A stretch of DNA of 63,885 bases, filler included. It is 6 parts of 6 records of this genome, joined end to end, with 100 filler letters (N's around TTAATTAATTAA, not from the genome) between each part and the next. Parts side by side here need not be neighbours in the genome. Positions count along the whole stretch, not along the records: positions 19,448 to 39,694 come from SRR31156797_1443; 5 more parts are not named here. The stretch is one strand, 5' to 3'. Shown piece by piece: positions 14,721 through 34,463 of this stretch (positions within the stretch are counted from its first letter, which is position 1; every line of letters starts with the position of its first letter). The notes below the pieces were generated by a model. The model did not search any database and was not told the origin of the DNA. It saw only the letters and a list, made by a program, of their open reading frames with translations. Both the position numbers and the translations under genes were made by a program.

Positions 14721-14905
14721 GTAACCATTAAACTATAGTATAATTATTGACAATACTGCTTCGCCAGAAACCTAATAAAATTGGTATAATAAAAGTGTAA
14801 AAATAACCCGTGCTTTATTCTTTTCATTTTTATAGATATTATGGCATAATAGAATTATAAAAAAACTAGGATATAAGATATAGCATTGCTAAAAGGAGTG
14901 AAGAG

Positions 14906-15304: not shown

Positions 15305-15308
15305 ATAT

Positions 15309-15346
15309 AAAACTACCCTATTTTAAAATGATGTAGGGTAGCTTTT
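15309..15346. terminator. Bidirectional terminator
   Basis: AAAACTACCCTA / TAGGGTAGCTTTT between convergent genes. Confidence 0.65.
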
Positions 15347-15860
15347 ATTTTGCAGTGAATATTTTTGTACTTACTATTTTATCAATAGGGATAGATCCGG
15401 TTGTTCCTTGCCAGTCACCTTTGCCGAGCCATTCATTTCCTTCATAAAAAATATCAGTATAAAAGATCCGCTCCCATGATTTTTCTTTAGAGATTTCTAG
15501 ATCACCAACATCAAGTTTTTCCTCTTCAGCTTCATTCATTGTAACAGTTCCGTTATTTAGAACAATATGCCAGGATAAAAACTCTGAAAGAAGTACTTCT
15601 ATCTCCTCAATCTCAATTTCTAATAATATAGCTCTTTCTCCAGGAGTCATATGACCGGACCTTCTTAGATCAGGTCTTTTAGGCCATAACCAAATGGGGT
15701 ATTCACCGGAATAATTAGGCAGCTTATTTTTCATCTGCTGCATTAACCAGTGATATTTATCTAAGAAATACGGTTCAATATATCTTTGATCTCCTTTTAA
15801 GTATCCGGTTTCTATTGCCTTATCATAAGCTTCAATTTTTTGAATTGTCCAATATCTCAT
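15345..15860 (-). CDS. DUF3841-like protein
   Basis: MRYWTIQ...YHWLMQQM...YPIWLW...RPDLR...VLLSEFLSWHIVLNN...SWERIF; RBS AAGGAG before ATG 15860. Confidence 0.75.
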   Translation of the reverse strand: MRYWTIQKIEAYDKAIETGYLKGDQRYIEPYFLDKYHWLMQQMKNKLPNYSGEYPIWLWPKRPDLRRSGHMTPGERAILLEIEIEEIEVLLSEFLSWHIVLNNGTVTMNEAEEEKLDVGDLEISKEKSWERIFYTDIFYEGNEWLGKGDWQGTTGSIPIDKIVSTKIFTAK

Positions 15861-16003
15861 GAAAACTCCTTTCATAGTCAAAGTAAATATTTAATTTAAA
15901 ATTATAACATATAATTTTTACAAATTTATAATAATTTGATTTTATTAGAATACTTTTGTTATACTTATACTAGTTTGAATGGCATTGAATAAGGAGCGAA
16001 TAT

Positions 16004-16927
16004 ATGAATATTTTTCAAGTTTTGAGTCAAGGTAAAGGAAGATTGAATGAAGAAAATCTATCAGCAATGCTAGGTTTTCTTTTAAATCCTGAACAATCCC
16101 ATGGATTAAAAGATTTATTCTTGAAGAGGTTTTTAAGTATGATCAATGAGGTAAGTGGTGTTGATTATATGAATGTTTTTAATAGTAACTATAAATTTGA
16201 TATAACACTCGAATCCCCATATGAAGTAAATAGTACTAAAAAGTACATAGACCTAGATCTTAAGTTTTTTGTAGATGGAAAAGAAGTTATAAGAGTATTA
16301 GTAGAAAATAAAATTAAGCCTGGTGCTGCTAAAAAAGATCAGTTTAAAGAAGAGTACTTAGGAGTATTAAATAGTTTAGAAGAAGATTCAAAAGAGCTGA
16401 AAGTACTAATGCTTTTATTAACACCAGAATCAACTAGTCCATTACTGAGAGAAGAGTATGAAGAGCTTAGTAGTGAATTGCTGCAAATTAATCATAATAA
16501 GGTTTGGCTTTATTGGAATGCAAAGGATAAAAACCCTTCAATTGTTCAAGAGTTAAAAAAAATAATATTACAAGAAGCTACAGTTGAAATAGATCCTATT
16601 TCAGAATACGTAAGACATACAATTAAAGCTTTAATTAGGCATATTATAGACTCTCAAAACATAAGTGATTTAGAGAAGAGATATAATCCAATTTCTAATG
16701 ACGAAATTATTCAAGAGGTAGAAATAAAATTAAATGAGATCTCATATAGAATTGAACAGTATAGATCATCAGCAATCAAGATTTTCAATTTAGAAAAAGA
16801 AGAGTATGAAATTGCTAAAAAGCTTTTAAGAGAGGTAAATGAGGTATATAACTTAGGAATTGATATAATCGGTAAGAATACAAGAAGTTTAGGAAAAGAT
16901 ATTCTGAAGGAACTTAAAAATATGTAA
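16004..16927 (+). CDS. PD-(D/E)XK nuclease superfamily protein (PDDEXK_4-like)
   Basis: EENLSAMLGFLLNP.QSHGL.D.FL, IDL...VLVENKI...DQF..Y. Confidence 0.8.
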   Translation: MNIFQVLSQGKGRLNEENLSAMLGFLLNPEQSHGLKDLFLKRFLSMINEVSGVDYMNVFNSNYKFDITLESPYEVNSTKKYIDLDLKFFVDGKEVIRVLVENKIKPGAAKKDQFKEEYLGVLNSLEEDSKELKVLMLLLTPESTSPLLREEYEELSSELLQINHNKVWLYWNAKDKNPSIVQELKKIILQEATVEIDPISEYVRHTIKALIRHIIDSQNISDLEKRYNPISNDEIIQEVEIKLNEISYRIEQYRSSAIKIFNLEKEEYEIAKKLLREVNEVYNLGIDIIGKNTRSLGKDILKELKNM

Positions 16928-17010
16928 AAAAATTGAAAAAGTGCGAGGGATTTTAATTCTCAGGCGTTAAAGTATTTGAGGAAATAAATAACGTAAAAAA
17001 GGAGATAATT

Positions 17011-18018
17011 ATGTCAAAACCTAATTTATTTAACTACGCAACAAGTGAATTATCCCAAGATGCATTTATATGCTGGTTGTTAGAATGGGCTAAGAAAGAG
17101 AATGAGCAATATGACAGTGATTTATATCAATGTGGACAGTTGTTAATAAGAGAATTTTTCAATAAGGCTAACATCGTATTGGAAGAGGGGATTTTAGAAA
17201 TAGAAATATTTAAACAATCAACTAATATTGATGTTTTAGCTGTGATTAATAAAGAGTACGCAATTATTATTGAGGATAAAACTCATACTAAAAATCATTC
17301 AAATCAACTTCAAAAATATATTGATCAAGTAATTTCTAGAGGTTTTCCTTTAGAAAAGATTATACCGGTTTATTTTAAAACTTATGATCAGAGTGACTAT
17401 AATGATATTTATAGTAAAGGTTACAAAACGTTTTTGCGAGAAGAATTACTTAAGATATTAAATAGTTTTTCTGAAGTTACTAATGATATTTTTATAGATT
17501 ATAGAAATAAAATAGAGAGTATAGAAAATGATGTAAATAGTTATCTTACGCTTCCAATAGAGAAATGGAGCTGGAATTCTTGGGTCGGTTTCTATAAAAA
17601 ACTTCAATGTTACTTTAATGGTAACTGGGATTATGTTCCTAACCCTAATGGAGGTTTTTTAGGATTTTGGTGGAATTTTATTGATACTGTAGATTATACA
17701 ATCTATTTACAGATAGAATCTAATTATGATTCAAAAAGTAATTTAATGCTTACGAAGCTTTGTTTTAAAATTAAAGTTGATGATAAATTGAAGAGATATG
17801 ATTTAAGAAGAGAATTAAATGAAAGAGTATGTTCTGCAGGATCAAAATTTGGTTTATCTATAAAAAAACCTCAAAGATTTGGTCATGGTCTTTATATGAC
17901 AATAGCTGTACTAGAGGAAGAATTTAGAAGTACAGATGCTGATAAAATAATAAATACTTCTAAAACATTCAATACTTTAGATAAATGCAGCAAACTATTA
18001 GAAGTGTTTGTTACGTAA
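17011..18018 (+). CDS. PD-(D/E)XK nuclease superfamily protein (PDDEXK_4-like)
   Basis: NLFNYATSELSQDAFICWLL, IDVL...IIIEDKT...HSNQL.KY. Confidence 0.8.
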   Translation: MSKPNLFNYATSELSQDAFICWLLEWAKKENEQYDSDLYQCGQLLIREFFNKANIVLEEGILEIEIFKQSTNIDVLAVINKEYAIIIEDKTHTKNHSNQLQKYIDQVISRGFPLEKIIPVYFKTYDQSDYNDIYSKGYKTFLREELLKILNSFSEVTNDIFIDYRNKIESIENDVNSYLTLPIEKWSWNSWVGFYKKLQCYFNGNWDYVPNPNGGFLGFWWNFIDTVDYTIYLQIESNYDSKSNLMLTKLCFKIKVDDKLKRYDLRRELNERVCSAGSKFGLSIKKPQRFGHGLYMTIAVLEEEFRSTDADKIINTSKTFNTLDKCSKLLEVFVT

Positions 18019-18180
18019 TAGAGAGGAGATATAGTTTGTTCTTAAAGAAGATCATGAAATATTTTTAGAAACTCAGATATTGACTCCATACTCTTTAAAA
18101 GTAAAAGGAAATTCAGTTATTGATATTTTTTTAAGGGGTATGTCTAAGATTTTCAACAAAAGGTGCGTTAAGGAATTTAT

Positions 18181-18225
18181 AAAAAGCTTGTAAGCCTATA
18201 TTCATAAGGCCTATAAGCTTTTTTT
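18181..18225. repeat. Imperfect palindrome (bidirectional terminator or recombinase-type arm)
   Basis: AAAAAGCTTGTAAGCCT-ATATTCATA-AGGCCTATAAGCTTTTT between convergent genes. Confidence 0.5.
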
Positions 18226-18315
18226 ATTGAGAGGTTTTTTAATGCAATTTTTATGTTTATTCTCTCTTTCAAAACCTCTTTTCAATAAATATAAGTTAAG
18301 TAGAAGATTTGATGC

Positions 18316-19293
18316 CTAAATAACTTTTTCGGTGTATCGATATTTATTTGAGTTGATATAAAAAATCCATTCTTTTTTAGATTTAAAGTAATTCCCACCA
18401 GGATAAGCTTTAGTCCAGTCAAGATTTAACCAAACACTACCATCTGCATCAACTCTATAGCTTAAGTTGTCATAACTATTCATAAGTTTGTATTTTACTA
18501 AATATGCTTTAATATTAGCAATCGTTTTCTTTGCAGCTAATAAATTATTATGTACATATACCTCTGTAAAGGCATGGCCTTCTTCTGAGCCTTCTGCAAG
18601 CACAATTCTACTTGTTCCTCCGATTCCCATAATGCAACTAGCCATTAGAATTGCAAAGTCATCGCAATCTCCTGTTAGGTTATTTTCAATACTCTCTGAA
18701 GCTTTTGCCATAATTTCCATAACGTTAGGATCATTAACATATTTCCAATTCCTTACAAGGTAATTGTGAATATAAATAATTTGTCCAATGTTATATTTCC
18801 CTTTATTATTAGCAGCTAGTTTTAAATAAAATTTTCTTGTTGCAGGATTATCAAAATCACACTTAAGCTTCAATTCTTCCAAAGTTTTATTCATGTAAGT
18901 TTGAGATTGATTTAGTTTTGGCGTGTATACAACTGGATCCTCTTTTATTTGAATATCTAGTGTATTTGATTTTGAAAGTGTTGAGGTAAATTTATTACTT
19001 TTAACGGGTTTTATCAAAACAAACAAAACGAAACAGCAAATCACTATGAAGGTTATTTTAAAAAGAAAATTACGTTTAAATTTATGGTAACTTTGCTTAT
19101 TTGTTATATATGAACTTTCTTTTATAGTATACTCATGTTTATAGTCTTTTTTATTTGCTCGATTCAGATTTTTAACATTAGATTTATTCTTTTTTAAGTC
19201 TATTTGCTTTTCGAAGGCTAAAGCTTTCTTCGATATCTCTTTATCATAAAAAGAATTTATTTCCAAATTATCATTTTCTAAATTAGATTTCAT
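18316..19293 (-). CDS. Membrane-anchored transglutaminase-like cysteine protease
   Basis: One TM (ITFIVICCFVLFVLI); catalytic triad GDCDDFA / GHAFTEV / LNLDWT. Confidence 0.8.
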   Translation of the reverse strand: MKSNLENDNLEINSFYDKEISKKALAFEKQIDLKKNKSNVKNLNRANKKDYKHEYTIKESSYITNKQSYHKFKRNFLFKITFIVICCFVLFVLIKPVKSNKFTSTLSKSNTLDIQIKEDPVVYTPKLNQSQTYMNKTLEELKLKCDFDNPATRKFYLKLAANNKGKYNIGQIIYIHNYLVRNWKYVNDPNVMEIMAKASESIENNLTGDCDDFAILMASCIMGIGGTSRIVLAEGSEEGHAFTEVYVHNNLLAAKKTIANIKAYLVKYKLMNSYDNLSYRVDADGSVWLNLDWTKAYPGGNYFKSKKEWIFYINSNKYRYTEKVI

Positions 19294-19347
19294 AAATCTT
19301 GTCCTTTAAGTAGTGAATTTTTTCATATGGCTGAATTTTACACGAAT

Positions 19348-19447
19348 NNNNNNNNNNNNNNNNNNNNNNNNNNNNNNNNNNNNNNNNNNNNTTAATTAAT
19401 TAANNNNNNNNNNNNNNNNNNNNNNNNNNNNNNNNNNNNNNNNNNNN
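19348..19447. other. Artificial contig spacer
   Basis: N44-TTAATTAATTAA-N44. Confidence 0.99.
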
Positions 19448-19453
19448 ATTGAA

Positions 19454-19606
19454 AACCACCTCCCGACTCGTACCTCGCCGTACTCCTCCTTGAATAAGGA
19501 GGAGAGTTGATTAGCATGGTGTATAGTCAATTGCGATTAAGAGGGTATTCGAACGCTAGAAAGCGATGCCCCTTGTTGTGAAGCTCAAGGCTTTCAGCCT
19601 TTGCTT
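19454..19606. repeat. REP-like hairpin elements
   Basis: AACCACCTCCC...CTCCTCCTT-GAAT-AAGGAGGAG, then GGGTAT...ATGCCC and AAGGCT-TTC-AGCCTT hairpins at the contig end. Confidence 0.55.
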
Positions 19607-19664
19607 ACAGAATTTAAAATCCATGTTAAACAAATTCTTATTTTAGCTTGGCGCCAATTTAAAA

Positions 19665-19869
19665 TGAAATGAGCACAAATACTTTTCTTGGGAGCTTATC
19701 GGAGATAAAATGGACACAAATACATTTCTTGAAGGCATTTCAAAAATAAAATCATGCCAAATACTTGGATTGTGGCCATTTCACAAATAAAATCAACACA
19801 AATACTCGGCTTGGGCGCATTTTACACATAAAATGGCTCCATGCACAGTACTTGGAACCATTACAAAAT
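19665..19869. repeat. Degenerate 41-bp tandem array of dyad motifs (5 clear units)
   Basis: Units start at 19665, 19706, 19747, 19788 and 19829; consensus TAAAATSNNNNCAAATACNNNNCTTGNNNNCATTT. Confidence 0.8.
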
Positions 19870-19906
19870 GAGGTGATACCAAGCCCAAAATTTGCCTTGA
19901 ATAATT

Positions 19907-20833
19907 TTACCGCACTATTGACCTCAACTTTTTCTCTTGTTCCTTTAATAATCGATGCGCTTCATCAAGATGCACCTGTTGAAAAGTAAGTTTATTTCCA
20001 GCTTTCATCTGCCCTAGCAAAGGAAGATCTGCAGAAATAACATTCGCTATTTTGGTATAACCGCCCACCGTTTGTCTGTCGGCCAGCATAATAATAGGTT
20101 GGCCATCTCCAGGCACCTGAATAGCTCCATTGCCTATTCCCGAAGAAAGAATATCTGCACCAGCAAGGTGCTTTATAGAAGGTCCTTCCAATCGATACCC
20201 CATCCGATCACTCTGTCCCGAAATGGTATAAGTTGAAGTCAAAAAAGTTTTTACCCCAGCTATATCAAAACGTTGAATATCGCTTCCTCCAATTACTCTA
20301 ATCGTTTGTTCTTGTTTTAATGACAATAAGCTATCCCTTCGAAGTTTTCTCTTTTTCACCTTCTTAACAGGTTTGCCAAGAGAGATTTCATCACCACTCA
20401 TTAATTGTCGCCCATTAAAACCGCCTAATTGCGCTCTGCTATAGGTGGAACGACTACCCAATACCGAATTTACATCAATACCACCTGCAAAAGCAATATA
20501 CAATCTACACCCCTCTTCAACACTTCCTATTTTAACCACATCTCCTTTTTGCAGGTGCTGATTAGAATAAAGATCTACCTCGTGATTATTAATCCACACA
20601 GATGCTTTTCCTCCAGCTATTCCCATAACCGATGCCGACAGAACCTCAAACTCAGGCCCGGTAAAACTAGCTTCCAGACAAGCTAAATCTTGTGCATTAC
20701 CCACTAATTTATTCGCCACCCTTAGCGAAAAAGAATCCATAGCACCAGCCACCGGCATACCATATTGTTGATAGCCATACCTACCCAAATCCTGAATACT
20801 GGTATATATTCCCGGGTTAATTATTCTGATCAT
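19907..20833 (-). CDS. pxpC: 5-oxoprolinase subunit C
   Basis: SIQDLGRYG, GAMD, SDRMGYRL, GAIQVP.DGQP, DRQTVGGY.KI; start at MIRIINPG. Confidence 0.9.
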   Translation of the reverse strand: MIRIINPGIYTSIQDLGRYGYQQYGMPVAGAMDSFSLRVANKLVGNAQDLACLEASFTGPEFEVLSASVMGIAGGKASVWINNHEVDLYSNQHLQKGDVVKIGSVEEGCRLYIAFAGGIDVNSVLGSRSTYSRAQLGGFNGRQLMSGDEISLGKPVKKVKKRKLRRDSLLSLKQEQTIRVIGGSDIQRFDIAGVKTFLTSTYTISGQSDRMGYRLEGPSIKHLAGADILSSGIGNGAIQVPGDGQPIIMLADRQTVGGYTKIANVISADLPLLGQMKAGNKLTFQQVHLDEAHRLLKEQEKKLRSIVR

Positions 20834-22231: not shown

Positions 22232-22291
22232 TTGCCAAGCTTTAACAGATCTCTAACTTTTAATTTTGAGAATAGCCAATGTAAGAAAAAT

Positions 22292-22322
22292 AAAAAAACC
22301 GGCAGTGACACACTACCGGTTT
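22292..22322 (-). terminator. Terminator of fabD
   Basis: AAACCGGTAGTG / CACTGCCGGTTT on the minus strand, followed by a T tract. Confidence 0.7.
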
Positions 22323-22343
22323 CAAAAATATTTTATCGAAATA

Positions 22344-25113: not shown

Positions 25114-26262
25114 GTGAGCATTAAAAAATCACATAAAAGTATTTTAGTTGGATTTCTGTTTCTGGCACTACTCTATGCCATTACACCGATATATCTAAAA
25201 AGAGCCATAATCTATTTATTTCCGGGCATAGAAGATCATTCTATTTTTGAAAACAGAGTAGTTGAAAACGCAGAAGGTATTCCATGGCCGGAAAGTTCTG
25301 CTTATATGAAACAAAAAATTAACAAGGTTGAGCGGGATACTCTCGAACATTATAAAACGACTGTATTCCTAATTATAAAAGAAGACTCTGTATTATACGA
25401 AGAATATTGAGATCATTTTGATAATACAACGATTTCCAATTCATTTTCTGCTGCTAAAAGCATTGTCAGTTTACTTATAGGAGCAGCTATTGACGATGGT
25501 TATATCAAAAGTGTAAATCAATCCATTGGTGATTTTATTCCTGAGTTTAAAGACAATGCTAACAATCTGGTTACCATTAAGGATTTACTGACAATGAGTT
25601 CTGGCTTAAATTGGAACGAAAGTTATGCCAACCCCTTTTCCATGACAACCAAAGCCTATTATGGAGATAACGTAAATGAACTAGTAACTGATTTACAATT
25701 AGTAGAAACTCCCGGAAAGGAATTCAAATACATAAGTGGCAATACGCAGTTATTAGCCATTATTATAAAAAATGCAACAGGTAAAACCCTCTCCGAATAT
25801 GCATCTATAAAACTATGGAAACCACTTGGAGCCACGAATAATGCACTTTGGAGTCTGGATAAAAAAGATGGGGATGAAAAAGCATACTGTTGCTTCTACA
25901 GTAACGCCAGAGATTTTGCCCGTATTGGCAGCTTAGTTTTGCACAAAGGAGTTATCAATGAACAACAACTTATTTCACCAAACTACATTGAAGCATCTAC
26001 TTCTCCTGCTACCTATTTAAATGATCCGCAGGATAAAATGCCAGTACAATTTTATGGTTACCATTGGTGGATTGCAAATATAAATGAAGATCAGATTCCA
26101 TACGCTAGAGGAATATACGGCCAGTATATTTTTATTCTCGAAAAGGAGAAATCTATTGTTGTTCGCTTAGGTCATAAAAGAAGTAAAACCAAAATTGATC
26201 ATCATCCCAGCGAAATATACTCTTACATCAAAACTGCTAAAAGAATATTAAACACAAAATAA
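25114..26262 (+). pseudogene. Beta-lactamase-family serine hydrolase interrupted by one in-frame TGA
   Basis: Track ORFs 25114-25410 and 25594-26262 share a frame; YEEY-TGA(25408-25410)-DHFDNTTISNSFSAAKS carries SxxK, then LLTMSSGL, YISGN, ARDFAR. Confidence 0.8.
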
Positions 26263-26292
26263 AAAGGCCACATGAAACTTTCCATGTGGCCT
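26261..26292. terminator. Terminator between convergent genes
   Basis: AGGCCACATG / CATGTGGCCT with an A tract on the left. Confidence 0.7.
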
Positions 26293-26316
26293 AATAATCT
26301 CTATATGTTTAATTTC

Positions 26317-28218
26317 TTAATAAGCTCTTGCATTTTTTCCTTCCATAAAGTTAATGAATGAAGTATTCACCACTTTATTTCCTCCGGCAGTTGGATAATT
26401 CCCTGTAAAATACCAATCTCCAGTATCATTCGGACAGGCTTTGTGTAAATTATCAACGGTTTGATATACAATAGACACTTCAGCATCAATATCAACAGGT
26501 TTCAGCATTTCTGCAATTTTATCCGAAATTTCCTGATCCTCAAAAGGCTTGTAAATTTCAGTTACATAATTCACAATTTCCTCCTTTGGAAGGTTTTGCT
26601 GCTCCTTACATTTTTTATAAACTTCATCAATAATGTTCTTCATTCCTCTTTCCTTCAACAACTCAATAGCTGCGCGGAAAGCACAGAAGTCACCTAACTT
26701 CGCCATATCAATACCATAGCAATCCGGATAGCGAATTTGAGGTGCAGAAGAAACAATAATTATTTTCTTCGGATGAAGTCTATCCAGAATTCTTAAGATA
26801 CTCTTTTTTAAAGTAGTTCCTCGTACAATAGAATCATCAATAATTACCAAGGTATCTTTCTGGTTTTTCACCACACCATAGGTTACATCATAAACGTGGG
26901 CTACTAAATCATCTCGACTATCATCATCAGCAATAAACGTCCTCATTTTAACGTCTTTGATTGCCATTTTTTCAACTCGAGGTTCCACATTCATGATTTC
27001 CTCTAATTGCTCATCGGTTATTCCGGCACCAAGCTCTTTTATCTTCTTAATCTTATGCTTATCACATGCTCTACGAACCCCCTCAATCATACCATAAAAG
27101 GCAGTTTCGGCAGTATTAGGAATATATGAAAACACCGTATCTTTAAGGTTATAATCCACCATTTCCAACAATGTTGGTGCAAGCAATTTACCAAGCTCTT
27201 TTCTTTCCTGATAAATATATTTGTCACTTCCTCGTGAAAAATAAATTCTTTCAAACGAACAAGATCTTCTTTCCTGAGGCACACGAACTAATTCCTCTGA
27301 AACTTCCCCATTCTTTTTAACGATTAAGGCATGACCAGGCTTTAATTCCTTCACATCTCTGATTCCCACATTCATGGCAGTTTGAATCACAGGTCTTTCT
27401 GAAGCCACAACGACTACTTCATCATCAATATAATAAGATGCCGGACGAATACCCCATGGATCTCTGGCCACAAATGCATCTCCATGACCGATCATTCCTG
27501 CAATTACATATCCACCATCCCATCTACGACTTGAACGCTCTAGAATCTTTCTAACATCCAGATTAGCCTCAATCTTATGCGAAATTTCTCGATTCGAGAA
27601 ACCTTCGTTTTTATATTGACGGAATAAAAATTGATTTTCTTCATCTAAAAAGTGACCTACATTTTCAAGAATTGTTACGGTATCGGTAAAATCCTTAGGA
27701 TGCTGACCTAAATCTTCCAAGTTTCGGAATATCTCATCAACATTAGTCAGGTTAAAGTTCCCCGCTACTACAAGGTTTCTTGAACGCCAGTTGTTTTCAC
27801 GCATTACAGGATGAACGTAATCGATACTGTGCCTTCCAAAAGTCCCGTAACGAAGGTGTCCCAAATATAATTCTCCACTAAAAGGCATATTTTCTTTCGC
27901 CCACTCCGGATCTTTCATTAATTCAGGTGTCCCACCTTCAACCTTATTCATGGCTTTGTTAATCTCTGAAAACACATCCTGAATAGGATTCTGTTTATTA
28001 GATCGTCTTCTTGACAAATACCTTGAACCTGAATGCTGATCAAGTTTTAAGCTTACCACTCCAGCTCCATCCTGTCCCCTGTTGTGTTGCTTTTCCATTA
28101 AAAGATATAGTTTGTGCAAACCATACATCCACGAACCATACTTCTCTTTATAATACTCCAGGGGTTTTCGTAATCGAATTAATACGAACCCACACTCATG
28201 CTTAATTTGATCGCTCAT
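26317..28218 (-). CDS. purF: Amidophosphoribosyltransferase (Bacteroidota long form)
   Basis: HECG Ntn start, QHNRGQDGAG, GHLRYGT, CSFERIYFSR, IIDDSIVRGTT, YGIDM. Confidence 0.92.
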   Translation of the reverse strand: MSDQIKHECGFVLIRLRKPLEYYKEKYGSWMYGLHKLYLLMEKQHNRGQDGAGVVSLKLDQHSGSRYLSRRRSNKQNPIQDVFSEINKAMNKVEGGTPELMKDPEWAKENMPFSGELYLGHLRYGTFGRHSIDYVHPVMRENNWRSRNLVVAGNFNLTNVDEIFRNLEDLGQHPKDFTDTVTILENVGHFLDEENQFLFRQYKNEGFSNREISHKIEANLDVRKILERSSRRWDGGYVIAGMIGHGDAFVARDPWGIRPASYYIDDEVVVVASERPVIQTAMNVGIRDVKELKPGHALIVKKNGEVSEELVRVPQERRSCSFERIYFSRGSDKYIYQERKELGKLLAPTLLEMVDYNLKDTVFSYIPNTAETAFYGMIEGVRRACDKHKIKKIKELGAGITDEQLEEIMNVEPRVEKMAIKDVKMRTFIADDDSRDDLVAHVYDVTYGVVKNQKDTLVIIDDSIVRGTTLKKSILRILDRLHPKKIIIVSSAPQIRYPDCYGIDMAKLGDFCAFRAAIELLKERGMKNIIDEVYKKCKEQQNLPKEEIVNYVTEIYKPFEDQEISDKIAEMLKPVDIDAEVSIVYQTVDNLHKACPNDTGDWYFTGNYPTAGGNKVVNTSFINFMEGKNARAY

Positions 28219-28391
28219 AACTTTAAGAGACTAACTTATTTTTTAGAAAGCGCAAATTTATTCTATTTTTTTGGCTTCCCCAACAACAAAAACCCATTAA
28301 TAAATGTTAAGGTGCTTTTGTCTAATTGTTTTTCCTATATAATTAACACAATAACAAAAAACGCCCTCCATTCAGAGGGCGCATGTATATT

Positions 28392-28853
28392 TTACTGTAA
28401 ATTTTCCAGAGGTATATGACTCACCGGCACCGGATAACAACTTGGAAATTCTTTTTTCAACTTTCGATAAAGACCTAAAGCCTCAGCTTTACTTCTAAAA
28501 TCTCCCACCTGCACACGCCAAAAAGGAGCTTCATACATGATATAAGGTTTTTCATCCGGAAATAATTCTAATAACTTCCCTTTTACTTCTGTTGCTTCTT
28601 TTTTGGCATTATTATTTGACCCCAAATAAAGTTGAATCCTGAATCCCTCAACACCCTTGCTTCTCTCATTTTGATCTACATGTATCTTCAATAAATCATT
28701 AATCGCAGGATCTTGAATGACAACTACTTTTCCTTCACCATCTTTAGACGAAGTAACTTCATCAATTATATTATGTGTTTTATCCTGAGCTGCAACACTT
28801 GCCATTAAGCATAAAAAAAATCCCAAAACAAAACTTTTCTTCATCATCTCCAT
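28392..28853 (-). CDS. SPOR-domain protein
   Basis: Signal peptide; GFRIQLY...WRVQVGDF..K.EA; terminator at 28356-28381. Confidence 0.85.
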   Translation of the reverse strand: MEMMKKSFVLGFFLCLMASVAAQDKTHNIIDEVTSSKDGEGKVVVIQDPAINDLLKIHVDQNERSKGVEGFRIQLYLGSNNNAKKEATEVKGKLLELFPDEKPYIMYEAPFWRVQVGDFRSKAEALGLYRKLKKEFPSCYPVPVSHIPLENLQ

Positions 28854-28861
28854 TTATTTTA

Positions 28862-29716
28862 TTAAGCGTACAAAGATAGTGATTCTTTTGTAGGAACAAC
28901 AAGAACAGGACAAGCCGATTCATTAATCAACTCATTGGCAAAAGGTTTAAAAAAATTCTCAAATGGAGTTGAAGAATGATTAACATTTGTTGCCAGCACA
29001 TCTGCATCAATCTTGGCAGCATAATCCATTAACAAACTGGATTTAACCTTTCCTGTTAATATTTCAGACTCCACTTTTAAATCCGTATTTTTCTCAATAA
29101 ACTTGACTGTCTGTTTTACAAAAGAATTAACTCTACTTTCCAATAAACTAAATCCATTTTCTTTCAGTCCAACTACATGAACTTTGGCATCAAAAAGTTT
29201 AGCAAGTCCAACCACAGCTGGTACTTTCTGCCTACTTGACTTATGCATGGTCACAGGCAATATTACCTTATCGATCCCTCGCCAATCTCTTTCCGGACGA
29301 ACAGTCAAAACAGGAACTGTAGATGCATTCACTAGCCTAAAAGCATTACTTCCTATATATTTATCTTCAAAACCAGAAGCCCCATGTGTTCCAATCACTA
29401 TAAGCGTAGTATCATCATATTTAGCTTGGTTTGAAATTTCTTTGAAAACATTCCCCTCTAATATTTTGCTATCAAATACACCATTTAAGACTCTATATGA
29501 TTCTTTATATTCTTTAATAACATCATCCAACCAAACTTCAACATCATCATTTAACAAAGCCTGCACTTTATGCTGAAGGTACTTTTGTGCTAATTTCTTA
29601 TTTCTTACATGCACTACTCTGAGGCTAGCCTGCAATTTATTCGCAATTTGTATTCCAAATTTCAATGCATTTAAGGAACTCTCAGAAAAGTCAATGGGAA
29701 CAAGAACTCGTTTCAT
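28862..29716 (-). CDS. Universal stress protein (tandem USP domains)
   Basis: RVLVPIDFS..S, LIVIGTHGASG...IGSNA, CPVLVV. Confidence 0.9.
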   Translation of the reverse strand: MKRVLVPIDFSESSLNALKFGIQIANKLQASLRVVHVRNKKLAQKYLQHKVQALLNDDVEVWLDDVIKEYKESYRVLNGVFDSKILEGNVFKEISNQAKYDDTTLIVIGTHGASGFEDKYIGSNAFRLVNASTVPVLTVRPERDWRGIDKVILPVTMHKSSRQKVPAVVGLAKLFDAKVHVVGLKENGFSLLESRVNSFVKQTVKFIEKNTDLKVESEILTGKVKSSLLMDYAAKIDADVLATNVNHSSTPFENFFKPFANELINESACPVLVVPTKESLSLYA

Positions 29717-29976
29717 GGCGTAGTTTATTTTTTAATATTAGGAAAATCGGCACCCCGCAAAATCAACCTGCTTTTACTCTCGATAAAGGTATCAAGTAAT
29801 TTATAAAACTTATTACCCAAAACCAATTTTATTACGAATACGTACACTACAGGTTGCATACCATTCCTAAAAACATTCGCTGATCTACTTTATTTTCAAC
29901 CATTAGGTCGCATGTCAAAATATTACAATTAAGTGAAACATCATAACTTAATTGAATAATGCTTCACAATTTTCCG

Positions 29977-30045
29977 AAAAAAAATACCGAGAATTGCCCA
30001 GGCATGCAATCCCTTCGACAATCTCGGTACCAATCAACACAACAC
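29977..30045 (-). ncRNA. Candidate sRNA unit A
   Basis: GTGTTGTGTTGAT, then a TACCGAGA...TCTCGGTA hairpin and a long T tract. Confidence 0.55.
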
Positions 30046-30110
30046 ATTTTAAATGCTTTACAACCGTACCCTATATATAAGGATATGAATGGTTTTATAT
30101 TTTTTTGATT

Positions 30111-30179
30111 AAAACACCGAGAGCTACAATCTTTTGGGGACAAAATGCATGTAACCCCCGGCATCAATCAACACAACAC
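30111..30179 (-). ncRNA. Candidate sRNA unit B
   Basis: GTGTTGTGTTGAT, then GCCGGGGGTTACA/TGTAGCTCTCGGT (fully paired only with G-U on the minus strand), loop TTGTCCCCA, then GTTTT. TACCTTAG promoter-like box upstream. Confidence 0.55.
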
Positions 30180-30241
30180 TCTTAAATTTTGCTAAGGTAG
30201 TTTTAAATTTTCTACCTACAACACATCTTTTCCGCTTGTTG

Positions 30242-30309
30242 AAAAATATACCGGAAGTTATTCAAGTGGGGACAAGAATTGCAACTTCCGGTATTGATCA
30301 ACACAACAC
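30242..30309 (-). ncRNA. Candidate sRNA unit C (3'UTR of the STAS gene)
   Basis: Starts 5 nt after the STAS stop: GTGTTGTGTTGAT, then ATACCGGAAGTT/AACTTCCGGTAT, loop TTGTCCCCA, then a T tract. Confidence 0.55.
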
Positions 30310-30314
30310 TTCTT

Positions 30315-30656
30315 TTATGCTATTAATAAGTTTTGAGAAAATGGCTTTGGTAAATCGCAAAAGAAAAACAGATGATCTACTTTAGCCTCAAATAATGTCT
30401 TATACACCTCTTCCTTTACATTGAACAAGCTCACCTGACACTTATTCATACTTGATAAACGCTGACCGGCGATAAGGGCATTAATCATATCTTGATCTAT
30501 CTCATTGACTCCACTAAAATCGATCATTAAGTTGGAGTAAGGAGATGTTAATTTTTTTAGAAATTGATTTTTAAAATCTGCCGTTTTATTCTCCTGAAGT
30601 TTACTTTCTTCGAAGGATACTAATATTGTATTGTTATAAGTTTTCACTTTAATCAT
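30315..30656 (-). CDS. STAS-domain protein (anti-sigma-factor antagonist-like)
   Basis: LMIDFSGVNEIDQ..I.ALI...LFNV.E.V...AKVD.LF; likely start MIKVKTY. The usual phosphorylated Ser of D-S-S is replaced (DQD). Confidence 0.75.
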   Translation of the reverse strand: MIKVKTYNNTILVSFEESKLQENKTADFKNQFLKKLTSPYSNLMIDFSGVNEIDQDMINALIAGQRLSSMNKCQVSLFNVKEEVYKTLFEAKVDHLFFFCDLPKPFSQNLLIA

Positions 30657-30688
30657 AACTTGTGTGTTTGTGTTCGGAATGGGTAATT

Positions 30689-30704
30689 CCAAAGCATGTG
30701 CCAA
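30689..30704 (-). promoter_or_regulatory. Sigma54-type -24/-12 promoter-like site
   Basis: TTGGCACATGCTTTGG versus TGGCAC-N5-TTGC, about 33 nt upstream of the STAS ATG. Confidence 0.5.
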
Positions 30705-30904
30705 AAATTTTTTACATCTGATTTTCAGTACTTTATATTTTAACCACACTTCTGTATGATTACAAAATGGAATCTGTTCCATATTTTGGAATATGAAATA
30801 TATTAAGATTCCTATATCCTTAATGCTCAAACTTTTTTCTCTATATCTTTAAGTTTGTGTAGCTATTATCATATTTTTGCGGTGAATTAAATTTTCACCA
30901 AAAT

Positions 30905-32041
30905 ATGGTAACAGATCAAGACTTTAATGAAATACGTCCATACAGGGATAATGAAATACATTCGATTTTTGAAGAGTTAATGCAGGAAGAATCTTTTGTG
31001 GAACTGCTCAAATTTCTTTTCCCTCACATTCCTATAGATGTGTTTATTCAAAAACTTTTAAATGTAAACTCTATTAAAGAGTTCCAGATTGGGATAATAT
31101 ATCCATATATTCAAGAGATAATTAAAAACACCACACAAGGCTTAACAATAGAAGGTTTAGATCAATTAGACCCGAACAAAAATTATATATTCATTTCGAA
31201 CCACAGAGATATAGTTTTAGACTCAGCTTTTTTAAGTGTTTCATTGTATGATGCAGGTCATGACACCTGCGAAATTGCCATTGGAGATAACTTATTAATA
31301 TATCCCTGGATTACCAAATTGGTCAAACTTAATAAGTCATTTGTTGTAAGAAGAAACCTTCCGGCCAGACAAATGCTGCAAAGCTCACTATTAATGTCTA
31401 AATACATACGTTTTAACATTACCGAACGAAAACAAAATGTATGGATAGCTCAAAGAGAAGGGCGATCAAAAGACGGTGATGACAGAACACAAACCAGTTT
31501 GCTTAAAATGCTAAACATGAGCGGAAATGGAAACTTTGTAGAAAATTTTAAAGAATTACAAATTGTTCCCTTGTCCATCTCTTATGAATACGACCCATGT
31601 GATTATCTTAAGGCTCATGAGTTTTTATTAAAAAAGCAAAATCCAGATTACAAGAAATCCCAGGCGGATGACTTAAAGCATATGGGAGCTGGAATTAAAG
31701 GAAGAAAAGGAAGAGTAAATTTTAAAGCAGGAACTCCTATTAAAGCAGAACTAAACGACCTTGCCACTTTTGATAAAAATAAGCAATTAGAAAAACTAGC
31801 AGGAATCATTGACGATCAAATACACAACAACTATAAACTTTGGCCAGGTAACTTTATAGCTTCGGATAAATTAAGTGGCACCAAACATTTTGCTTCTAAA
31901 TACACTAATGAAGATGAAAAAATATTTGAGGCTTATATAAATGAGCATATATCAAGGTTAGAATCTACAGACCAAACCTTTATATACAACAGCCTGATGG
32001 AAATGTATGCCAATCCTGTGAAGAATTTCTATAAAGAATAA
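30905..32041 (+). CDS. Glycerolipid acyltransferase (PlsC/PlsB family)
   Basis: SNHRDIVLD (HxxxxD), WIAQREGRSKDG, IVPLSISYE. Confidence 0.85.
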   Translation: MVTDQDFNEIRPYRDNEIHSIFEELMQEESFVELLKFLFPHIPIDVFIQKLLNVNSIKEFQIGIIYPYIQEIIKNTTQGLTIEGLDQLDPNKNYIFISNHRDIVLDSAFLSVSLYDAGHDTCEIAIGDNLLIYPWITKLVKLNKSFVVRRNLPARQMLQSSLLMSKYIRFNITERKQNVWIAQREGRSKDGDDRTQTSLLKMLNMSGNGNFVENFKELQIVPLSISYEYDPCDYLKAHEFLLKKQNPDYKKSQADDLKHMGAGIKGRKGRVNFKAGTPIKAELNDLATFDKNKQLEKLAGIIDDQIHNNYKLWPGNFIASDKLSGTKHFASKYTNEDEKIFEAYINEHISRLESTDQTFIYNSLMEMYANPVKNFYKE

Positions 32042-32055
32042 TTACTACAAAATAT

Positions 32056-32096
32056 AAAAAAAGCGCTATTCCAAATTTTGGAATAGCGCTTTTTTT
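32056..32096. terminator. Bidirectional terminator
   Basis: A tract, AGCGCTATTCCAA / TTGGAATAGCGCT, T tract. Confidence 0.85.
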
Positions 32097-32114
32097 GTAT
32101 ATTATCCAGACAAA

Positions 32115-33869
32115 CTATTTCTCTTTTTTCCTTAAAGCTATATTTAATTCCTCTAGCTGATCTTCTGCAACTGGTGATGGAGAATCAATCATCACATCTC
32201 TTCCCGAATTATTTTTAGGGAAAGCAATTACATCTCTAATCGAATCAATTCCTGCAAACAAGGAAACTAATCTGTCAAATCCAAAAGCAACTCCACCATG
32301 TGGTGGCGCTCCATATTTAAACGCATTCATTAAGAAACCAAACTGACTTTCCGCTTCCTCTTCAGAGAAACCAAGTAATTGAAACATCTTATGCTGTAAC
32401 TCATCGTTGTGAATCCTAATAGAACCTCCACCAATTTCAACACCATTAATAACTAAATCGTAAGCATTTGCTCTTACTTTTCCTGGATCAGTCTCCAATA
32501 AAGCAATATCTTCTTTTTTAGGTGAAGTAAATGGATGGTGCATCGCATGAAAACGAGCCGAATCTTCATCCCACTCTAATAATGGAAAATCAACCACCCA
32601 AAGCGGAGCAAATTTAGTTTTATCTCTTAAACCGAGTCTGCTACCCATTTCTAAACGCAATTCACAAAGTGCATTTTGCGTCTTCGCTTTTGCACCGGCC
32701 AAAATCAACAATAAATCTCCAGGCTTTGCACCAAAAGCTTCTGCCCATGTTTTTAATGCAGGCTCGTCAAAGAATTTATCAACTGACGATTTAAATGTTC
32801 CATCTGTGTTATATTTTACGTACACCAAACCTTGTGCTCCAATCTGTGGTTTACGCACAAAATCCGTCAGCTTATCCAATTCTTTACGACTATATCCGGC
32901 ACATCCTTCTGCACAAATACCACCAACATACTCCGCATCTTCAAAAACTTTAAAGCCACAATCAACTAAAAGCTCTTTCATTTCAACAAACTTCATATCA
33001 AAACGAATGTCGGGCTTATCAGATCCATAAAACTTCATCGCTTCCTCGTAAGGCATTTGAGGAAAATCAAAATCTAAATCAACATTCTTAATGACTTTAA
33101 ACAAATGCTTGGTCATTCCTTCAAAAGTTGAAAGAATATCCTGCTGTTCAACAAATGACATTTCACAGTCAATTTGGGTAAATTCAGGCTGGCGATCCGC
33201 ACGTAAATCTTCATCACGGAAGCACTTTACAATCTGAAAATACTTATCAAAACCAGCAACCATTAACAACTGCTTAAACACCTGAGGCGACTGCGGTAAG
33301 GCATAAAATTCACCTTGATTCATACGTGAAGGTACAATGAAATCGCGTGCTCCTTCAGGAGTAGACTTAATTAAAACAGGCGTTTCTGTTTCAATAAAGT
33401 TTTCATTATTTAAATAGTTACGAACTTCAAATGCTAATTTGTGACGAAGCACTAAATTTTCACGAACCGGATTACGACGTAAATCCAGGTATCTGTATTT
33501 CATACGAAGGTCATCTCCCCCGTCTGTTTCATCCTCAATAGTAAATGGAGGTAAATCAGAAGCATTTAATAAGGTAAATTCACCTACTAAAATCTCAATT
33601 TCTCCGGTTGGGATTTTTGAATTCTTATTACTACGCTCCGCGACTACCCCTTTAGCCTGAATCACATATTCACGACCTAACTTTCTTGCTTCCTCGCTTA
33701 ATTCTTTTTTTGTTTCATCAAGAACCAATTGGGTAATACCATATCTATCTCTTAAATCAATAAAAGTCATCCCCCCAAGGTTACGAACTTTCTGCACCCA
33801 TCCACTTAAGGTTACATTTTGGTCTACATTGGTAAGTCTTAGCTCACCACAAGTATGTGATCTGTACAT
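32115..33869 (-). CDS. aspS: Aspartate--tRNA ligase
   Basis: [52 protein letters not shown]. Confidence 0.97.
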
Positions 33870-34016
33870 TTTCTATACTTATTAAATATTCATTGAATAC
33901 ATGCGCCATGTTGATAAATTACTATTTTCGCCTTACCAACACTTAATCTTTTCAAGGTGCGAAAATATAAAGAAAATAGATAAAAGTACAGGTATTGACC
34001 CATTTAAAGTATAAAG

Positions 34017-34463
34017 ATGAGCAAAATCAATTTTTCAGATGAGTATTTTATGAAACAAGCGCTTAAAGAGGCGCAAATAGCTGCACAAAAAGATGAAATT
34101 CCTGTTGGCGCCATCGTTGTTTGCAATCAACAAATTATATCAAAGGCGCACAATTTAACCGAAACACTGAAAGACGTTACTGCTCATGCTGAAATGCTAG
34201 CCATTACAGCAGCCACCGAATTTTTAGGTGGGAAATATTTAAATGAATGTACACTGTACGTTACTCTTGAACCATGCGCCATGTGTGCAGGTGCGCTTTC
34301 GTGGTCACAAATTGGAGAAATAGTAATTGGGGCTCCCGATAAAAAAAGAGGTTTTTTAAAACACTCCCCCCTTATCAAACACCCCAAAACAAATATTAAA
34401 CAAGGTTTTTTAGCAGACGAGTGCTCTGAAATTGTAAAAAACTTCTTTAAAACAAAAAGATAA
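34017..34463 (+). CDS. tadA: tRNA adenosine deaminase
   Basis: EIPVGA, TAHAEM, TLEPCAMC, FF..KR. Confidence 0.85.
   Translation: MSKINFSDEYFMKQALKEAQIAAQKDEIPVGAIVVCNQQIISKAHNLTETLKDVTAHAEMLAITAATEFLGGKYLNECTLYVTLEPCAMCAGALSWSQIGEIVIGAPDKKRGFLKHSPLIKHPKTNIKQGFLADECSEIVKNFFKTKR

What the first reader, a model, noticed from the sequence alone, without database searches (positions are those of the whole stretch)
29977..30309. Tandem triplet of homologous sRNA-like units sharing a GUGUUGUGUUGAU seed
Seen: an identical 13-mer occurs at 30033, 30167 and 30297 (spacing 134 and 130). On the minus strand each copy is followed within 2-4 nt by a long hairpin opening RCCG...CGGT, then a U tract. Stem sequences differ between units but stay paired, and unit B pairs fully only via G-U on the minus strand, which indicates RNA-level selection. 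Units B and C share the loop UUGUCCCCA. Units A and B have one-mismatch TAnnTTTG-like boxes 12-15 nt upstream of the seed; unit C is the STAS 3'UTR. Inference: sibling sRNAs, either base-pairing or protein-sponging, between a STAS gene and a USP gene.
Basis: partly seen in the sequence, partly recalled or inferred. Interest (0 to 1): 0.75.

Follow-up and report, generated by a model that had tools for sequence, protein, structure and literature searches.

The report
Three sibling small RNAs after STAS gene
Three tandem copies of a small-RNA-like unit sit between two stress-related genes and are kept in the same place across a family of marine Bacteroidota, which points to an undescribed family of regulatory RNAs of a familiar type.

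Summary
The 13-mer occurs exactly three times, at 30033, 30167 and 30297. On the minus strand each copy is a single-stranded GUGUUGUGUUGAU followed by a long hairpin and a U tract.

One scan of 185,579 species genomes found the same tandem cluster only in Marinilabiliaceae (Saccharicrinis, Labilibacter, Plebeiibacterium and MAGs). It always lies between the same STAS and USP genes.
- **Seed:** identical in 50 of 58 units, although the STAS protein is only 52-66% identical.
- **Hairpin:** the sequence varies but stays paired (95% of cells; 6-7 of 11 basal pairs show compensatory changes). There are 70 G-U cells against 2 A-C cells, which fixes the RNA strand.
- **Known families:** Rfam 15 has no match. 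The Bacteroides FopS family has the same design but a different sequence.

My reading is a new family of sibling base-pairing sRNAs:
- **Unit C** is the 3' end of the STAS mRNA.
- **Unit B** has its own conserved TAnnTT(A/T)G promoter box.
- **Unit A** ends the cluster.

The best candidate target is the conserved CA-rich leader of the STAS mRNA itself, which sits behind a sigma-54-like promoter. That link is suggestive only. Expression is untested. Interest is moderate.

The parts
30689..30703 (-). Sigma-54-like -24/-12 element TGGCACatgctTTGG upstream of the STAS gene
   Evidence: TGGCA(C/T)-N5-TTG(G/A) is present at the same place in 19 of 19 genomes. The canonical C of the -12 TTGC is absent in all of them.
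30660..30677 (-). CA-rich leader (CCGAACACAAACACACAA) ending 3 nt before the STAS start codon; candidate pairing partner of the seed
   Evidence: Conserved in 19 of 19 genomes. Duplex with the seed is -10.7 to -12.3 kcal/mol, against a median of -5.75 for 124 neighbouring start regions. Whole-mRNA folding predicts 7.5-12.5 leader-seed pairs in 14 of 15 genomes.
30315..30656 (-). STAS-domain gene (113 aa plus stop)
   Evidence: Pfam STAS 25.6 bits against a cut-off of 22.6. The start MIKVKTY matches the MIKIKTY starts of the orthologues. Translation.
30240..30315 (-). Unit C: A-rich lead including the STAS stop, seed 30297-30309, hairpin about 30248-30294 with a C-rich apical loop, then UAUAUUUUU
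   Evidence: Model R1 scores it 81.9 bits. Orthologous units follow the STAS stop in every locus that holds the STAS 3' end (19 of the 20; L041 starts downstream of it).
30192..30199 (-). TACCTTAG, a -7-type promoter box for unit B
   Evidence: A TAnnTT(A/T)G box ends 13-17 nt before the seed of B in 19 of 19 genomes.
30105..30185 (-). Unit B: seed 30167-30179, G-U-rich hairpin about 30113-30165 with a C-rich apical loop, short U tract
   Evidence: R1 scores it 72.5 bits.
30061..30068 (-). TACGGTTG box upstream of unit A (not conserved)
   Evidence: A one-mismatch box lies 13-24 nt before the seed in only 3 of 19 A units.
29975..30051 (-). Unit A: seed 30033-30045, hairpin about 29983-30031, U8 tract 29977-29984; the strongest terminator and the end of the cluster
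   Evidence: R1 scores it 60.4 bits.
28862..29716 (-). Tandem-domain universal stress protein gene downstream of the cluster on the same strand
   Evidence: Pfam Usp, E = 2e-27. Syntenic in every locus that reaches it.

Best explanation
The region encodes a previously undescribed family of three sibling small RNAs on the minus strand.

**Anatomy.** Each RNA has a short A-rich lead, an invariant single-stranded UG-rich seed (GUGUUGUGUUGAU, usually extended by UGAU), and a long intrinsic-terminator hairpin whose sequence drifts while its pairing is kept.
- Unit C is the 3' end of the STAS mRNA. It is either a 3'UTR-embedded sRNA or simply a seed carried by the mRNA.
- Unit B is transcribed from its own Bacteroidota-type promoter.
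- Unit A is made from an unrecognised promoter, or by read-through and processing of B, and ends the cluster.

**Proposed action (inferred).** The seed pairs with CA-rich single-stranded RNA. The best local candidate is the conserved CA-rich leader just upstream of the STAS start codon. Bacteroidota need unstructured, A-rich start regions, so pairing there would mask the start region and lower STAS synthesis. It could act in cis through unit C or in trans through B and A. The C-rich apical loop shared by B and C is a second conserved module of unknown partner.

**Shown:** anatomy, conservation, covariation, strand, synteny and the unit B promoter box.
**Inferred:** transcription, seed function and the STAS target.

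My odds: functional RNA elements about 0.8; trans-acting base-pairing sRNAs about 0.55; STAS leader as a true target about 0.3.
For: - **Distribution.** The scan for seed+NNN+TRCCG gave 54 loci. All 19 loci with 2-3 matches, plus L041, are Marinilabiliaceae. The other 34 are single hits in unrelated taxa, and I calculate about 35 expected by chance.
- **Model scores.** R1 scores 60 units at 54-89 bits. The best of the 34 other loci reaches 33.7 bits.
- **Synteny.** The order aspS, acyltransferase, STAS, units, USP, SPOR, purF-like is kept in every locus. STAS is 52-66% and USP 61-69% identical in protein outside the near-identical L012.
- **Seed.** Identical in 19 of 19 B units, 19 of 19 A units and 12 of 20 C units. 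The other 8 C units differ at one or two end positions. The 13 seed columns are 13 of the 16 invariant columns among 87.
- **Basal stem, all units.** 95.1% of 471 cells are paired, against 37.6-49.3% when the partner is slid. Six of 11 pairs carry changes on both sides, and 0 of 500 shuffles reach the covariation score.
- **Basal stem, B and C units only.** 98.5% paired, with 7 of 11 pairs compensatory.
- **Strand.** 70 G-U cells against 2 A-C cells, so the seed-sense strand is 95.1% paired and its complement 80.7%.
- **Accessibility.** The seed is unpaired in folds of the terminated forms.
- **Promoter.** The B box is present in 19 of 19 genomes at a fixed distance. Perfect TAnnTTTG boxes sit upstream of the neighbouring acyltransferase gene (sequences printed).
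- **STAS leader.** See the parts list. In whole-mRNA folds the native leader gives 8.9-12.5 expected leader-seed pairs. Leaders of other genes swapped in give 0-6.7. In 0 of 48 dinucleotide and 0 of 48 mononucleotide shuffles is the native value reached.
Against: - **No expression data.** No transcript, 5' end or terminator-usage data were available.
- **No conserved promoter for A.** A box is found in 3 of 19 genomes.
- **Weak U tracts.** The U tracts of B and of many C units are short or weak.
- **The seed-leader complementarity is largely compositional.** In isolated duplex tests, dinucleotide shuffles of the leader reach the native energy in 47-224 of 500 trials per genome. The pairing is only 7+3 bp with a bulge in most genomes.
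- **The 19 genomes are related**, so the conserved leader counts as roughly one observation.
- **No other conserved complementary site** was found near USP, SPOR, the acyltransferase gene or the purF-like gene.
- **No genome-wide target search was possible.**
- **Perfect conservation of a 13-17 nt single strand next to a hairpin** fits a protein-binding site equally well.
Confidence: 0.55

Rival explanations
1. The conserved 13-17 nt single strand next to each hairpin is a protein-binding site. The three units would titrate an RNA-binding protein (a sponge, as CsrB does for CsrA). Alternatively the protein, such as an RRM-type protein of Bacteroidota, is needed for their action, and pairing with mRNAs is secondary or absent.
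For: The motif is invariant across genera while everything around it varies. It is presented three times in tandem, always single-stranded and 1-3 nt from a stem. It is a tandem pentamer, GUGUU GUGUU. In Bacteroides thetaiotaomicron the RRM protein RbpB binds the single-stranded 5' part of the analogous FopS sRNAs (PMC11697453, passages read). The local target evidence is weak.
Against: No RNA-binding protein gene lies in the conserved neighbourhood. Three sites is few for a sponge. The CA-rich STAS leader offers a nucleic-acid partner. Nothing here tests protein binding.
Confidence: 0.2
2. The units are cis-acting. They form a chain of regulated terminators in a STAS-to-USP or unit-B-promoter-to-USP transcript, with the motif serving as the site where a factor decides between termination and read-through into the USP gene.
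For: All elements are on one strand in the fixed order STAS, C, B, A, USP. The U tracts of C and B are weak and that of A is strong. In 8 genomes A follows B by only 88-90 nt with no promoter box between them.
Against: The distance from A to the USP start varies from about 108 to 690 nt (coordinates). USP upstream regions carry their own conserved blocks in one subgroup. The UG-rich seed has no complement in the terminator arms, so no antiterminator alternative is evident. A conserved promoter placed in front of the second of three attenuators is not expected.
Confidence: 0.15
3. The repeats act at the DNA level as a repeated operator, or they are leftover duplications of the STAS terminator with no function of their own.
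For: A conserved 13-mer could be a transcription-factor site. Tandem duplication explains the origin of the units.
Against: The G-U over A-C asymmetry (70 against 2) and the compensatory changes are RNA-level signals. Spacings of 88-191 nt are not phased. Decaying duplicates would not keep 13 of 13 bases in 50 of 58 units across genera whose STAS proteins are 52-66% identical.
Confidence: 0.04
4. The seed is a three-codon mini-ORF (GUG UUG UGU UGA) whose translation next to the hairpin controls termination.
For: The frame GUG-UUG-UGU-UGA is present in all units. The one variant at the first base (L022 unit C) turns GUG into AUG. The upstream sequence is A-rich.
Against: No synonymous variation occurs at any codon in 58 units, so the constraint is on nucleotides and not on a peptide. 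As I recall, and did not test here, non-AUG starts are disfavoured in Bacteroidota. The AUG variant is a single case.
Confidence: 0.02

Closest known systems
FopS / GibS sRNAs of Bacteroides thetaiotaomicron (PMC11697453; passages read, Supplementary Data 2 searched)
   Same: Same phylum and no Hfq. The RNAs are about 65-70 nt with a conserved single-stranded 5' seed followed by a terminator hairpin. There are several paralogues with the same seed, one of them 3'UTR-derived. The promoters are of the canonical Bacteroidota type. They act by masking translation start regions.
   Different: The sequences are unrelated. The FopS 70% consensus shares only its first 5 nt (GUGUU) with this seed (compared by eye). 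FopS has 12-15 copies dispersed in Bacteroidaceae. Here there are 3 (once 4) copies in one syntenic locus in Marinilabiliaceae. The scan gave a single Bacteroidaceae hit (L007), which the model scored at chance level (32.4 bits).
Tandem sibling sRNAs of Proteobacteria and Firmicutes: PrrF1/PrrF2 with the read-through product PrrH (PMC2851614 and PMC7948967, titles and abstract starts seen in the listing); OmrA/OmrB and LhrC1-5 (recalled)
   Same: Adjacent paralogous sRNA genes with identical seed regions and divergent remainder. Each ends in an intrinsic terminator, and read-through of the first terminator is possible. C-rich loops, as in LhrC, are a recalled similarity.
   Different: Different phyla, sequences and chaperone context. 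Here the first copy is fused to the 3' end of a protein-coding mRNA. Only one of the three units shows a conserved promoter.
icaR mRNA of Staphylococcus aureus, in which the 3'UTR pairs with the mRNA's own 5'UTR (PMC3868564, title and abstract start seen in the listing)
   Same: A motif in the 3'UTR is complementary to the translation start region of the same mRNA. That is what whole-mRNA folding predicts for STAS and unit C.
   Different: In icaR the motif is an anti-Shine-Dalgarno sequence (recalled). Here the leader is CA-rich in a phylum that does not rely on Shine-Dalgarno pairing. The same motif is also carried by two downstream free-standing units. The interaction here is only predicted.

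Membership tests
Any Rfam 15 family | Covariance-model score at or above the family's gathering threshold | tested here: not met
   There were 0 matches in the whole window and 0 in 8 homologous loci. At E <= 10 the only overlap is MIR2670 at 16.7 bits against a threshold of 117.
FopS/GibS family (Bacteroides) | Sequence homology to the FopS 5' consensus (R1/R1' seed) | tested here: not met
   Only the first 5 nt coincide with the 35-nt 70% consensus given in Supplementary Data 2 of PMC11697453 (compared by eye). The FopS alignment figure and the large supplementary PDF could not be read.
FopS/GibS family (Bacteroides) | Architecture: single-stranded 5' seed, terminator hairpin, about 65-70 nt, several paralogues | tested here: met
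   This shows that it works like FopS, not that it is a member.
FopS/GibS family (Bacteroides) | Association with the RRM protein RbpB | not testable with these tools
   Needs CLIP or gel-shift assays. No RRM gene lies in the 20-kb segment.
Tandem sibling base-pairing sRNAs (general kind) | Adjacent paralogous units with a shared conserved seed and a divergent body | tested here: met
Tandem sibling base-pairing sRNAs (general kind) | Intrinsic terminator at each 3' end, with structure under selection | tested here: met
   The U tracts of B and of some C units are short.
Tandem sibling base-pairing sRNAs (general kind) | An own promoter for each unit | tested here: inconclusive
   B has one in 19 of 19 genomes and A in 3 of 19. 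C has none and lies in the STAS 3'UTR.
Tandem sibling base-pairing sRNAs (general kind) | Detected transcripts and seed-dependent regulation of targets | not testable with these tools
   No RNA-seq data or genome-wide target search was available.
3'UTR-derived sRNAs | The sRNA shares the terminator of a coding mRNA and starts just after the stop codon | tested here: met
   The seed starts 6 nt after the STAS stop in the window. Orthologous C units follow the STAS stop in the other loci.
Sigma-54-dependent promoter (upstream of STAS) | GG at -24 and TTGC at -12 with the canonical spacing (consensus TGGCAC-N5-TTGC, recalled) | tested here: inconclusive
   TGGCA(C/T)-N5-TTG is present in 19 of 19 genomes, but the C of the -12 GC is G or A in all of them.
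Sigma-54-dependent promoter (upstream of STAS) | A cognate enhancer-binding activator nearby | tested here: not met
   None is found among the genes of window 20-40 kb. An activator need not be linked.
STAS anti-sigma-factor antagonists (SpoIIAA/RsbV/RsbS type) | STAS fold and a phosphorylatable Ser/Thr | tested here: inconclusive
   The Pfam STAS match is just above its cut-off. In a weak alignment to RsbS of Moorella (E = 0.03-0.06), the serine column of the wild-type chain holds Gln. That this serine is the phosphorylated one is recalled.

The most novel reading that the evidence does not exclude
The STAS mRNA is self-masking. The seed in its own 3'UTR (unit C) closes onto its CA-rich 5' leader, and the two downstream sibling sRNAs carry the same seed. 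Together they would form an RNA switch that sets the level of a partner-switching STAS protein expressed from a sigma-54-like promoter. This would be a 5'-3' closed-loop mechanism combined with sibling sRNAs, in a phylum that lacks Shine-Dalgarno-based initiation.
Probability: 0.25. Interest if true: 0.7.

Novelty: new member of a known kind. Interest (0 to 1): 0.5.

Why it matters
RNA regulators of Bacteroidota outside the gut Bacteroides are almost unknown, and this phylum lacks Hfq and ProQ. This family has unusually clean comparative support: an invariant seed, a covarying terminator, fixed synteny and a defined strand. It also occurs in cultured marine isolates, so it is directly testable.

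It links an sRNA cluster to two stress-type genes (STAS and USP) and to a sigma-54-like promoter. It offers a concrete hypothesis for how UG-rich seeds could mask CA-rich, Shine-Dalgarno-less start regions. If the self-pairing of the STAS mRNA holds, it would extend 3'UTR-to-5'UTR control, known from icaR, to another phylum and tie it to sibling sRNAs.

Tried and rejected
- **Rfam.** The window at gathering thresholds, the region at E <= 10, and 8 homologous loci gave nothing.
- **Literature.** 'Marinilabiliaceae' with 'small RNA' gave 1 unrelated paper. Bacteroidota/sRNA/tandem/paralogous/terminator gave nothing on this family. The seed 12-mers as text returned 13 papers, and the 10 listed are unrelated by their titles.
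- **FopS membership.** Rejected on sequence.
- **More copies in the window.** None. The best other R1 hit is 18 bits at 22287-22335.
- **The 2-mismatch site in the purF-like gene (28079-28091).** It encodes the invariant peptide KQHN and shows ordinary synonymous variation in 17 orthologues, so it is chance.
- **Seed-complementary site 47 nt upstream of aspS.** It is 12-13 bp including G-U pairs, but it is present in only 3 of 14 loci long enough to test, namely the window, L012 and L002. It is not a conserved target.
- **Conserved complementary sites near other neighbours.** None near the starts of USP, SPOR, the acyltransferase gene or the purF-like gene.
- **Targets for the C-rich loop.** GTGGGGA/TGGGGAC in the loci mostly matches the antisense of the loops themselves. 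The 10 other scattered hits, 3 of them antisense to the USP start, were not pursued.
- **Isolated duplex test of seed against STAS leader.** Not significant against dinucleotide shuffles. Only the whole-mRNA context test favoured the native leader.
- **Partner genes near the locus.** No RsbW-type kinase, PP2C phosphatase, sigma-54 activator or RRM protein was found.
- **Other readings.** The mini-ORF, CRISPR-like and mobile-repeat readings were considered and rejected. The units form a single syntenic locus with no synonymous variation and no cas or transposase context.

Full report
**Observation.** The 13-mer ATCAACACAACAC occurs exactly at 30033, 30167 and 30297 on the + strand and nowhere else in the window. 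The only other match, with two mismatches, is at 28079-28091. On the minus strand each copy reads GUGUUGUGUUGAU, then three bases, then a long hairpin opening U(A/G)CCG and closing CGGU(A/G), then a U run. Cut at the U tract, all three units fold with the first 20 nt unpaired and one hairpin: -22.4, -25.3 and -19.9 kcal/mol, z = -3.1 to -3.8 (longer versions).

**Origin of the sequence.** The window is a mosaic in composition: GC is about 0.55 (1-8.3 kb), 0.25 (8.3-20 kb), 0.36 (20-40 kb) and 0.5-0.6 (40 kb to the end), with sharp steps. The finding lies in the 0.36 block. Locus L012, from a chromosome titled 'uncultured Saccharicrinis sp.', is 98.0% identical to window 26026-34309. This block therefore comes from a Saccharicrinis-like member of the Marinilabiliaceae (taxonomy).

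- It returned 54 loci. All 19 loci with two or three matches are Marinilabiliaceae by their record titles (Saccharicrinis, Labilibacter, Plebeiibacterium and family-level MAGs). So is the single-match L041, a contig end of the same MAG as L013.
- The other 34 loci are single matches scattered over unrelated phyla. By my arithmetic about 35 are expected by chance.
- Eight chromosome-scale records each have only this one locus.
- A covariance model built from 43 distinct units scored 60 units at 54-89 bits. The best of the 34 unrelated loci reached 33.7 bits, even though those loci were selected to contain 21 pattern positions.
- The model also recovered a third unit in eight genomes. There it has GUGUUGUGUUGAA and had escaped the pattern.
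- Every complete locus therefore has three units. L017 has four, and L004 has a degenerate third at its contig end.

**Synteny and conservation.** tblastn with the window's proteins shows the same order everywhere: aspS, acyltransferase (opposite strand), STAS, units C-B-A, USP, SPOR protein, purF-like amidotransferase.
- Outside the near-identical L012, STAS is 52-66% and USP 61-69% identical in protein.
- The seed is identical in 19 of 19 B units, 19 of 19 A units and 12 of 20 C units. Seven C units change only the last base, and one also changes the first.
- In the 87-column alignment, 13 of the 16 invariant columns are the seed.

**RNA-level selection.**
- The consensus basal stem of 11 pairs is paired in 95.1% of 471 cells, against 37.6-49.3% when the 3' partner is slid by 1-3 columns.
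- Six pairs show changes on both sides (23 cells), and 0 of 500 column shuffles reach the covariation score.
- For B and C units alone the basal helix is 98.5% paired, with 7 of 11 pairs compensatory. The top of the hairpin holds an invariant UGUCCCC around a C-rich loop.
- G-U cells outnumber A-C cells 70 to 2. The strand carrying GUGUUG... is 95.1% paired and its complement only 80.7%.
- Together these results fix the strand and argue against a DNA-level element. The shuffle controls do not correct for relatedness, so they should be read as support and not as probabilities.

**The three units differ.**
- **Unit C** always follows the STAS stop codon, which is part of a conserved UAAARAWW lead found before all seeds. 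It has no promoter box of its own, and its U tract is often weak.
- **Unit B** has a TAnnTT(A/T)G box ending 13-17 nt before the seed in 19 of 19 genomes, and the box is perfect TAnnTTTG in L017 and L052. TAnnTTTG is the Bacteroidota -7 promoter box as I recall it. Perfect copies sit upstream of the neighbouring acyltransferase gene (sequences).
- **Unit A** has such a box in only 3 of 19 genomes. In eight genomes it starts 88-90 nt after the seed of B, directly behind B's terminator. It has the strongest U tract.
- My inference is that B is an independent gene, C is the 3' end of the STAS mRNA, and A is made from an unrecognised promoter or by read-through and processing.

**Candidate target.** Orthologue comparison moves the STAS start to the ATG at 30656, giving 113 aa. 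Upstream, 19 of 19 genomes share two blocks:
- a sigma-54-like element, TGGCA(C/T)-N5-TTG(G/A), at 30689-30703. It lacks the canonical C at -12.
- a CA-rich leader, CGAAACACAAACACAC, at 30660-30677, ending a few bases before the start codon.

The evidence that the seed pairs with this leader is mixed.
- *Duplex energy.* It is -10.7 to -12.3 kcal/mol in all 19 genomes, typically AACACAA, a bulged A, then CAC. In L017 and L040 all 13 seed bases pair across two bulges.
- *Rank among neighbours.* Among 124 start regions in these loci the median is -5.75. The STAS leaders fill most of the top ranks.
- *Isolated duplex control.* Dinucleotide shuffles of the leader reach the native energy in 47-224 of 500 trials, so the complementarity is mostly CA-against-UG composition.
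- *Whole-mRNA folding.* Folding the STAS mRNA from 24 nt upstream of the start codon to the end of unit C gives 7.5-12.5 expected leader-seed pairs in 14 of 15 genomes, and 2.8 in L002.
- *Whole-mRNA controls.* Leaders of USP, acyltransferase or purF-like genes swapped in give 0-6.7. In four genomes 0 of 48 dinucleotide and 0 of 48 mononucleotide shuffles reach the native value.

I rate this a real lead at about 0.3. The orthologues are not independent, and long-range fold predictions are unreliable.

**Mechanism I commit to.** These are sibling base-pairing sRNAs whose UG-rich seed masks CA-rich, unstructured start regions. The STAS mRNA is the first candidate, regulated in cis by its own 3'UTR copy and in trans by B and A. 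The C-rich loop of B and C is a second module with no partner found locally. The rivals are a protein-binding or sponge role for the motif (0.2), a chain of cis-acting regulated terminators in front of USP (0.15), a DNA-level or decaying repeat (0.04) and a three-codon mini-ORF (0.02).

**Comparison with known systems.**
- No Rfam 15 family matches.
- The FopS/GibS sRNAs of Bacteroides thetaiotaomicron have the same design and include a 3'UTR-derived member (PMC11697453, passages). Their consensus shares only GUGUU with this seed. This family therefore works like FopS but is not a member.
- Tandem siblings such as PrrF1/PrrF2 with the read-through product PrrH (listing) parallel the B-A arrangement.
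- The 5'-3' UTR pairing of icaR (listing) parallels the predicted STAS self-pairing.
- Text searches found nothing on this family.

**Verdict.** The feature is real and well supported, and it is a new family of a known kind. Expression, targets and the choice between base-pairing and protein binding remain to be shown. The closed metagenome and viral collections, and diverged copies elsewhere in these genomes, stay unchecked.

Noticed in passing
window 1-63885, with steps near 8.3 kb, 20.0 kb and 40.0 kb: The window is a composition mosaic: GC is about 0.55, 0.25, 0.36 and 0.5-0.6, with sharp boundaries. The gene sets of the blocks are unrelated (ABC/FtsX, Clp ATPase and TPR; orphans; the Saccharicrinis-like block; mixed housekeeping). 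It looks like joined pieces of different genomes, or large foreign islands. Only 26026-34309 could be tied to a genome (L012).
   Followed up: partly
window 8300-20000: A block of GC 0.23-0.30 with strong positive GC skew. Most of its ORFs have no Pfam match, and it also holds an AAA_23 ATPase (12675-14600) and a PDDEXK_4 nuclease (16004-16927). It may be a defence-type or mobile island, or a different organism.
   Followed up: no
window 30689-30703 (-) and the matching positions of the 18 loci listed: A sigma-54-like TGGCA(C/T)-N5-TTG(G/A) element lies upstream of the STAS gene in 19 of 19 genomes, always without the canonical C at -12. Further upstream are conserved TGATAATCAG and AATTCCAAAA blocks that could be activator sites.
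   Followed up: partly
window 30315-30830 (-): The mechanical 171-aa ORF (TTG start) overstates the STAS gene. Orthologues and the conserved leader place the start at the ATG at 30656 (113 aa). In a weak alignment to RsbS, the serine column of the wild-type chain holds Gln.
   Followed up: partly
window about 33902-33916 (-), 47 nt upstream of aspS; also L012 and L002: A 12-13 bp complement to the seed, counting G-U pairs. All differences among the three genomes are transitions that keep the pairing. It is absent from the other 11 loci long enough to test.
   Followed up: partly
window 30069-30082 (-); equivalent positions in L002, L015, L017, L040 and L052: In genomes with about 120-150 nt between B and A, a short inverted repeat of non-conserved sequence lies 20-35 nt upstream of the seed of A. 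Examples are CCTTATATATAGGG here and AAGGTTAACCTT in L052. It could be a small extra hairpin or a protein-binding site.
   Followed up: no
L017 1748-2219: Labilibacter marinus has four units: the STAS-proximal C unit, a second C-like copy without a gene in front of it, then B and A.
   Followed up: partly
L008, L018, L022, L027, L032, L033, L035 and L044, upstream of USP: A conserved palindrome, CTATTTTA(C/T)AAAATAG, followed by TACGTATCTTTT lies about 50-70 nt before the USP start in this subgroup. It suggests a separate operator and promoter for USP.
   Followed up: no
window 26317-28218 (-): The 633-aa 'purF-like' protein matches the PurF model far below its cut-off (121 bits against 350). 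It carries only class-II glutamine amidotransferase signatures, so it is probably a different amidotransferase.
   Followed up: no
window 22287-22335 (-): A weak hit of the unit model R1 (18 bits, E = 0.04) lies between the LamB/YcsF-family gene and the acyl-transferase-domain (Pfam Acyl_transf_1) gene. It is most likely chance.
   Followed up: no
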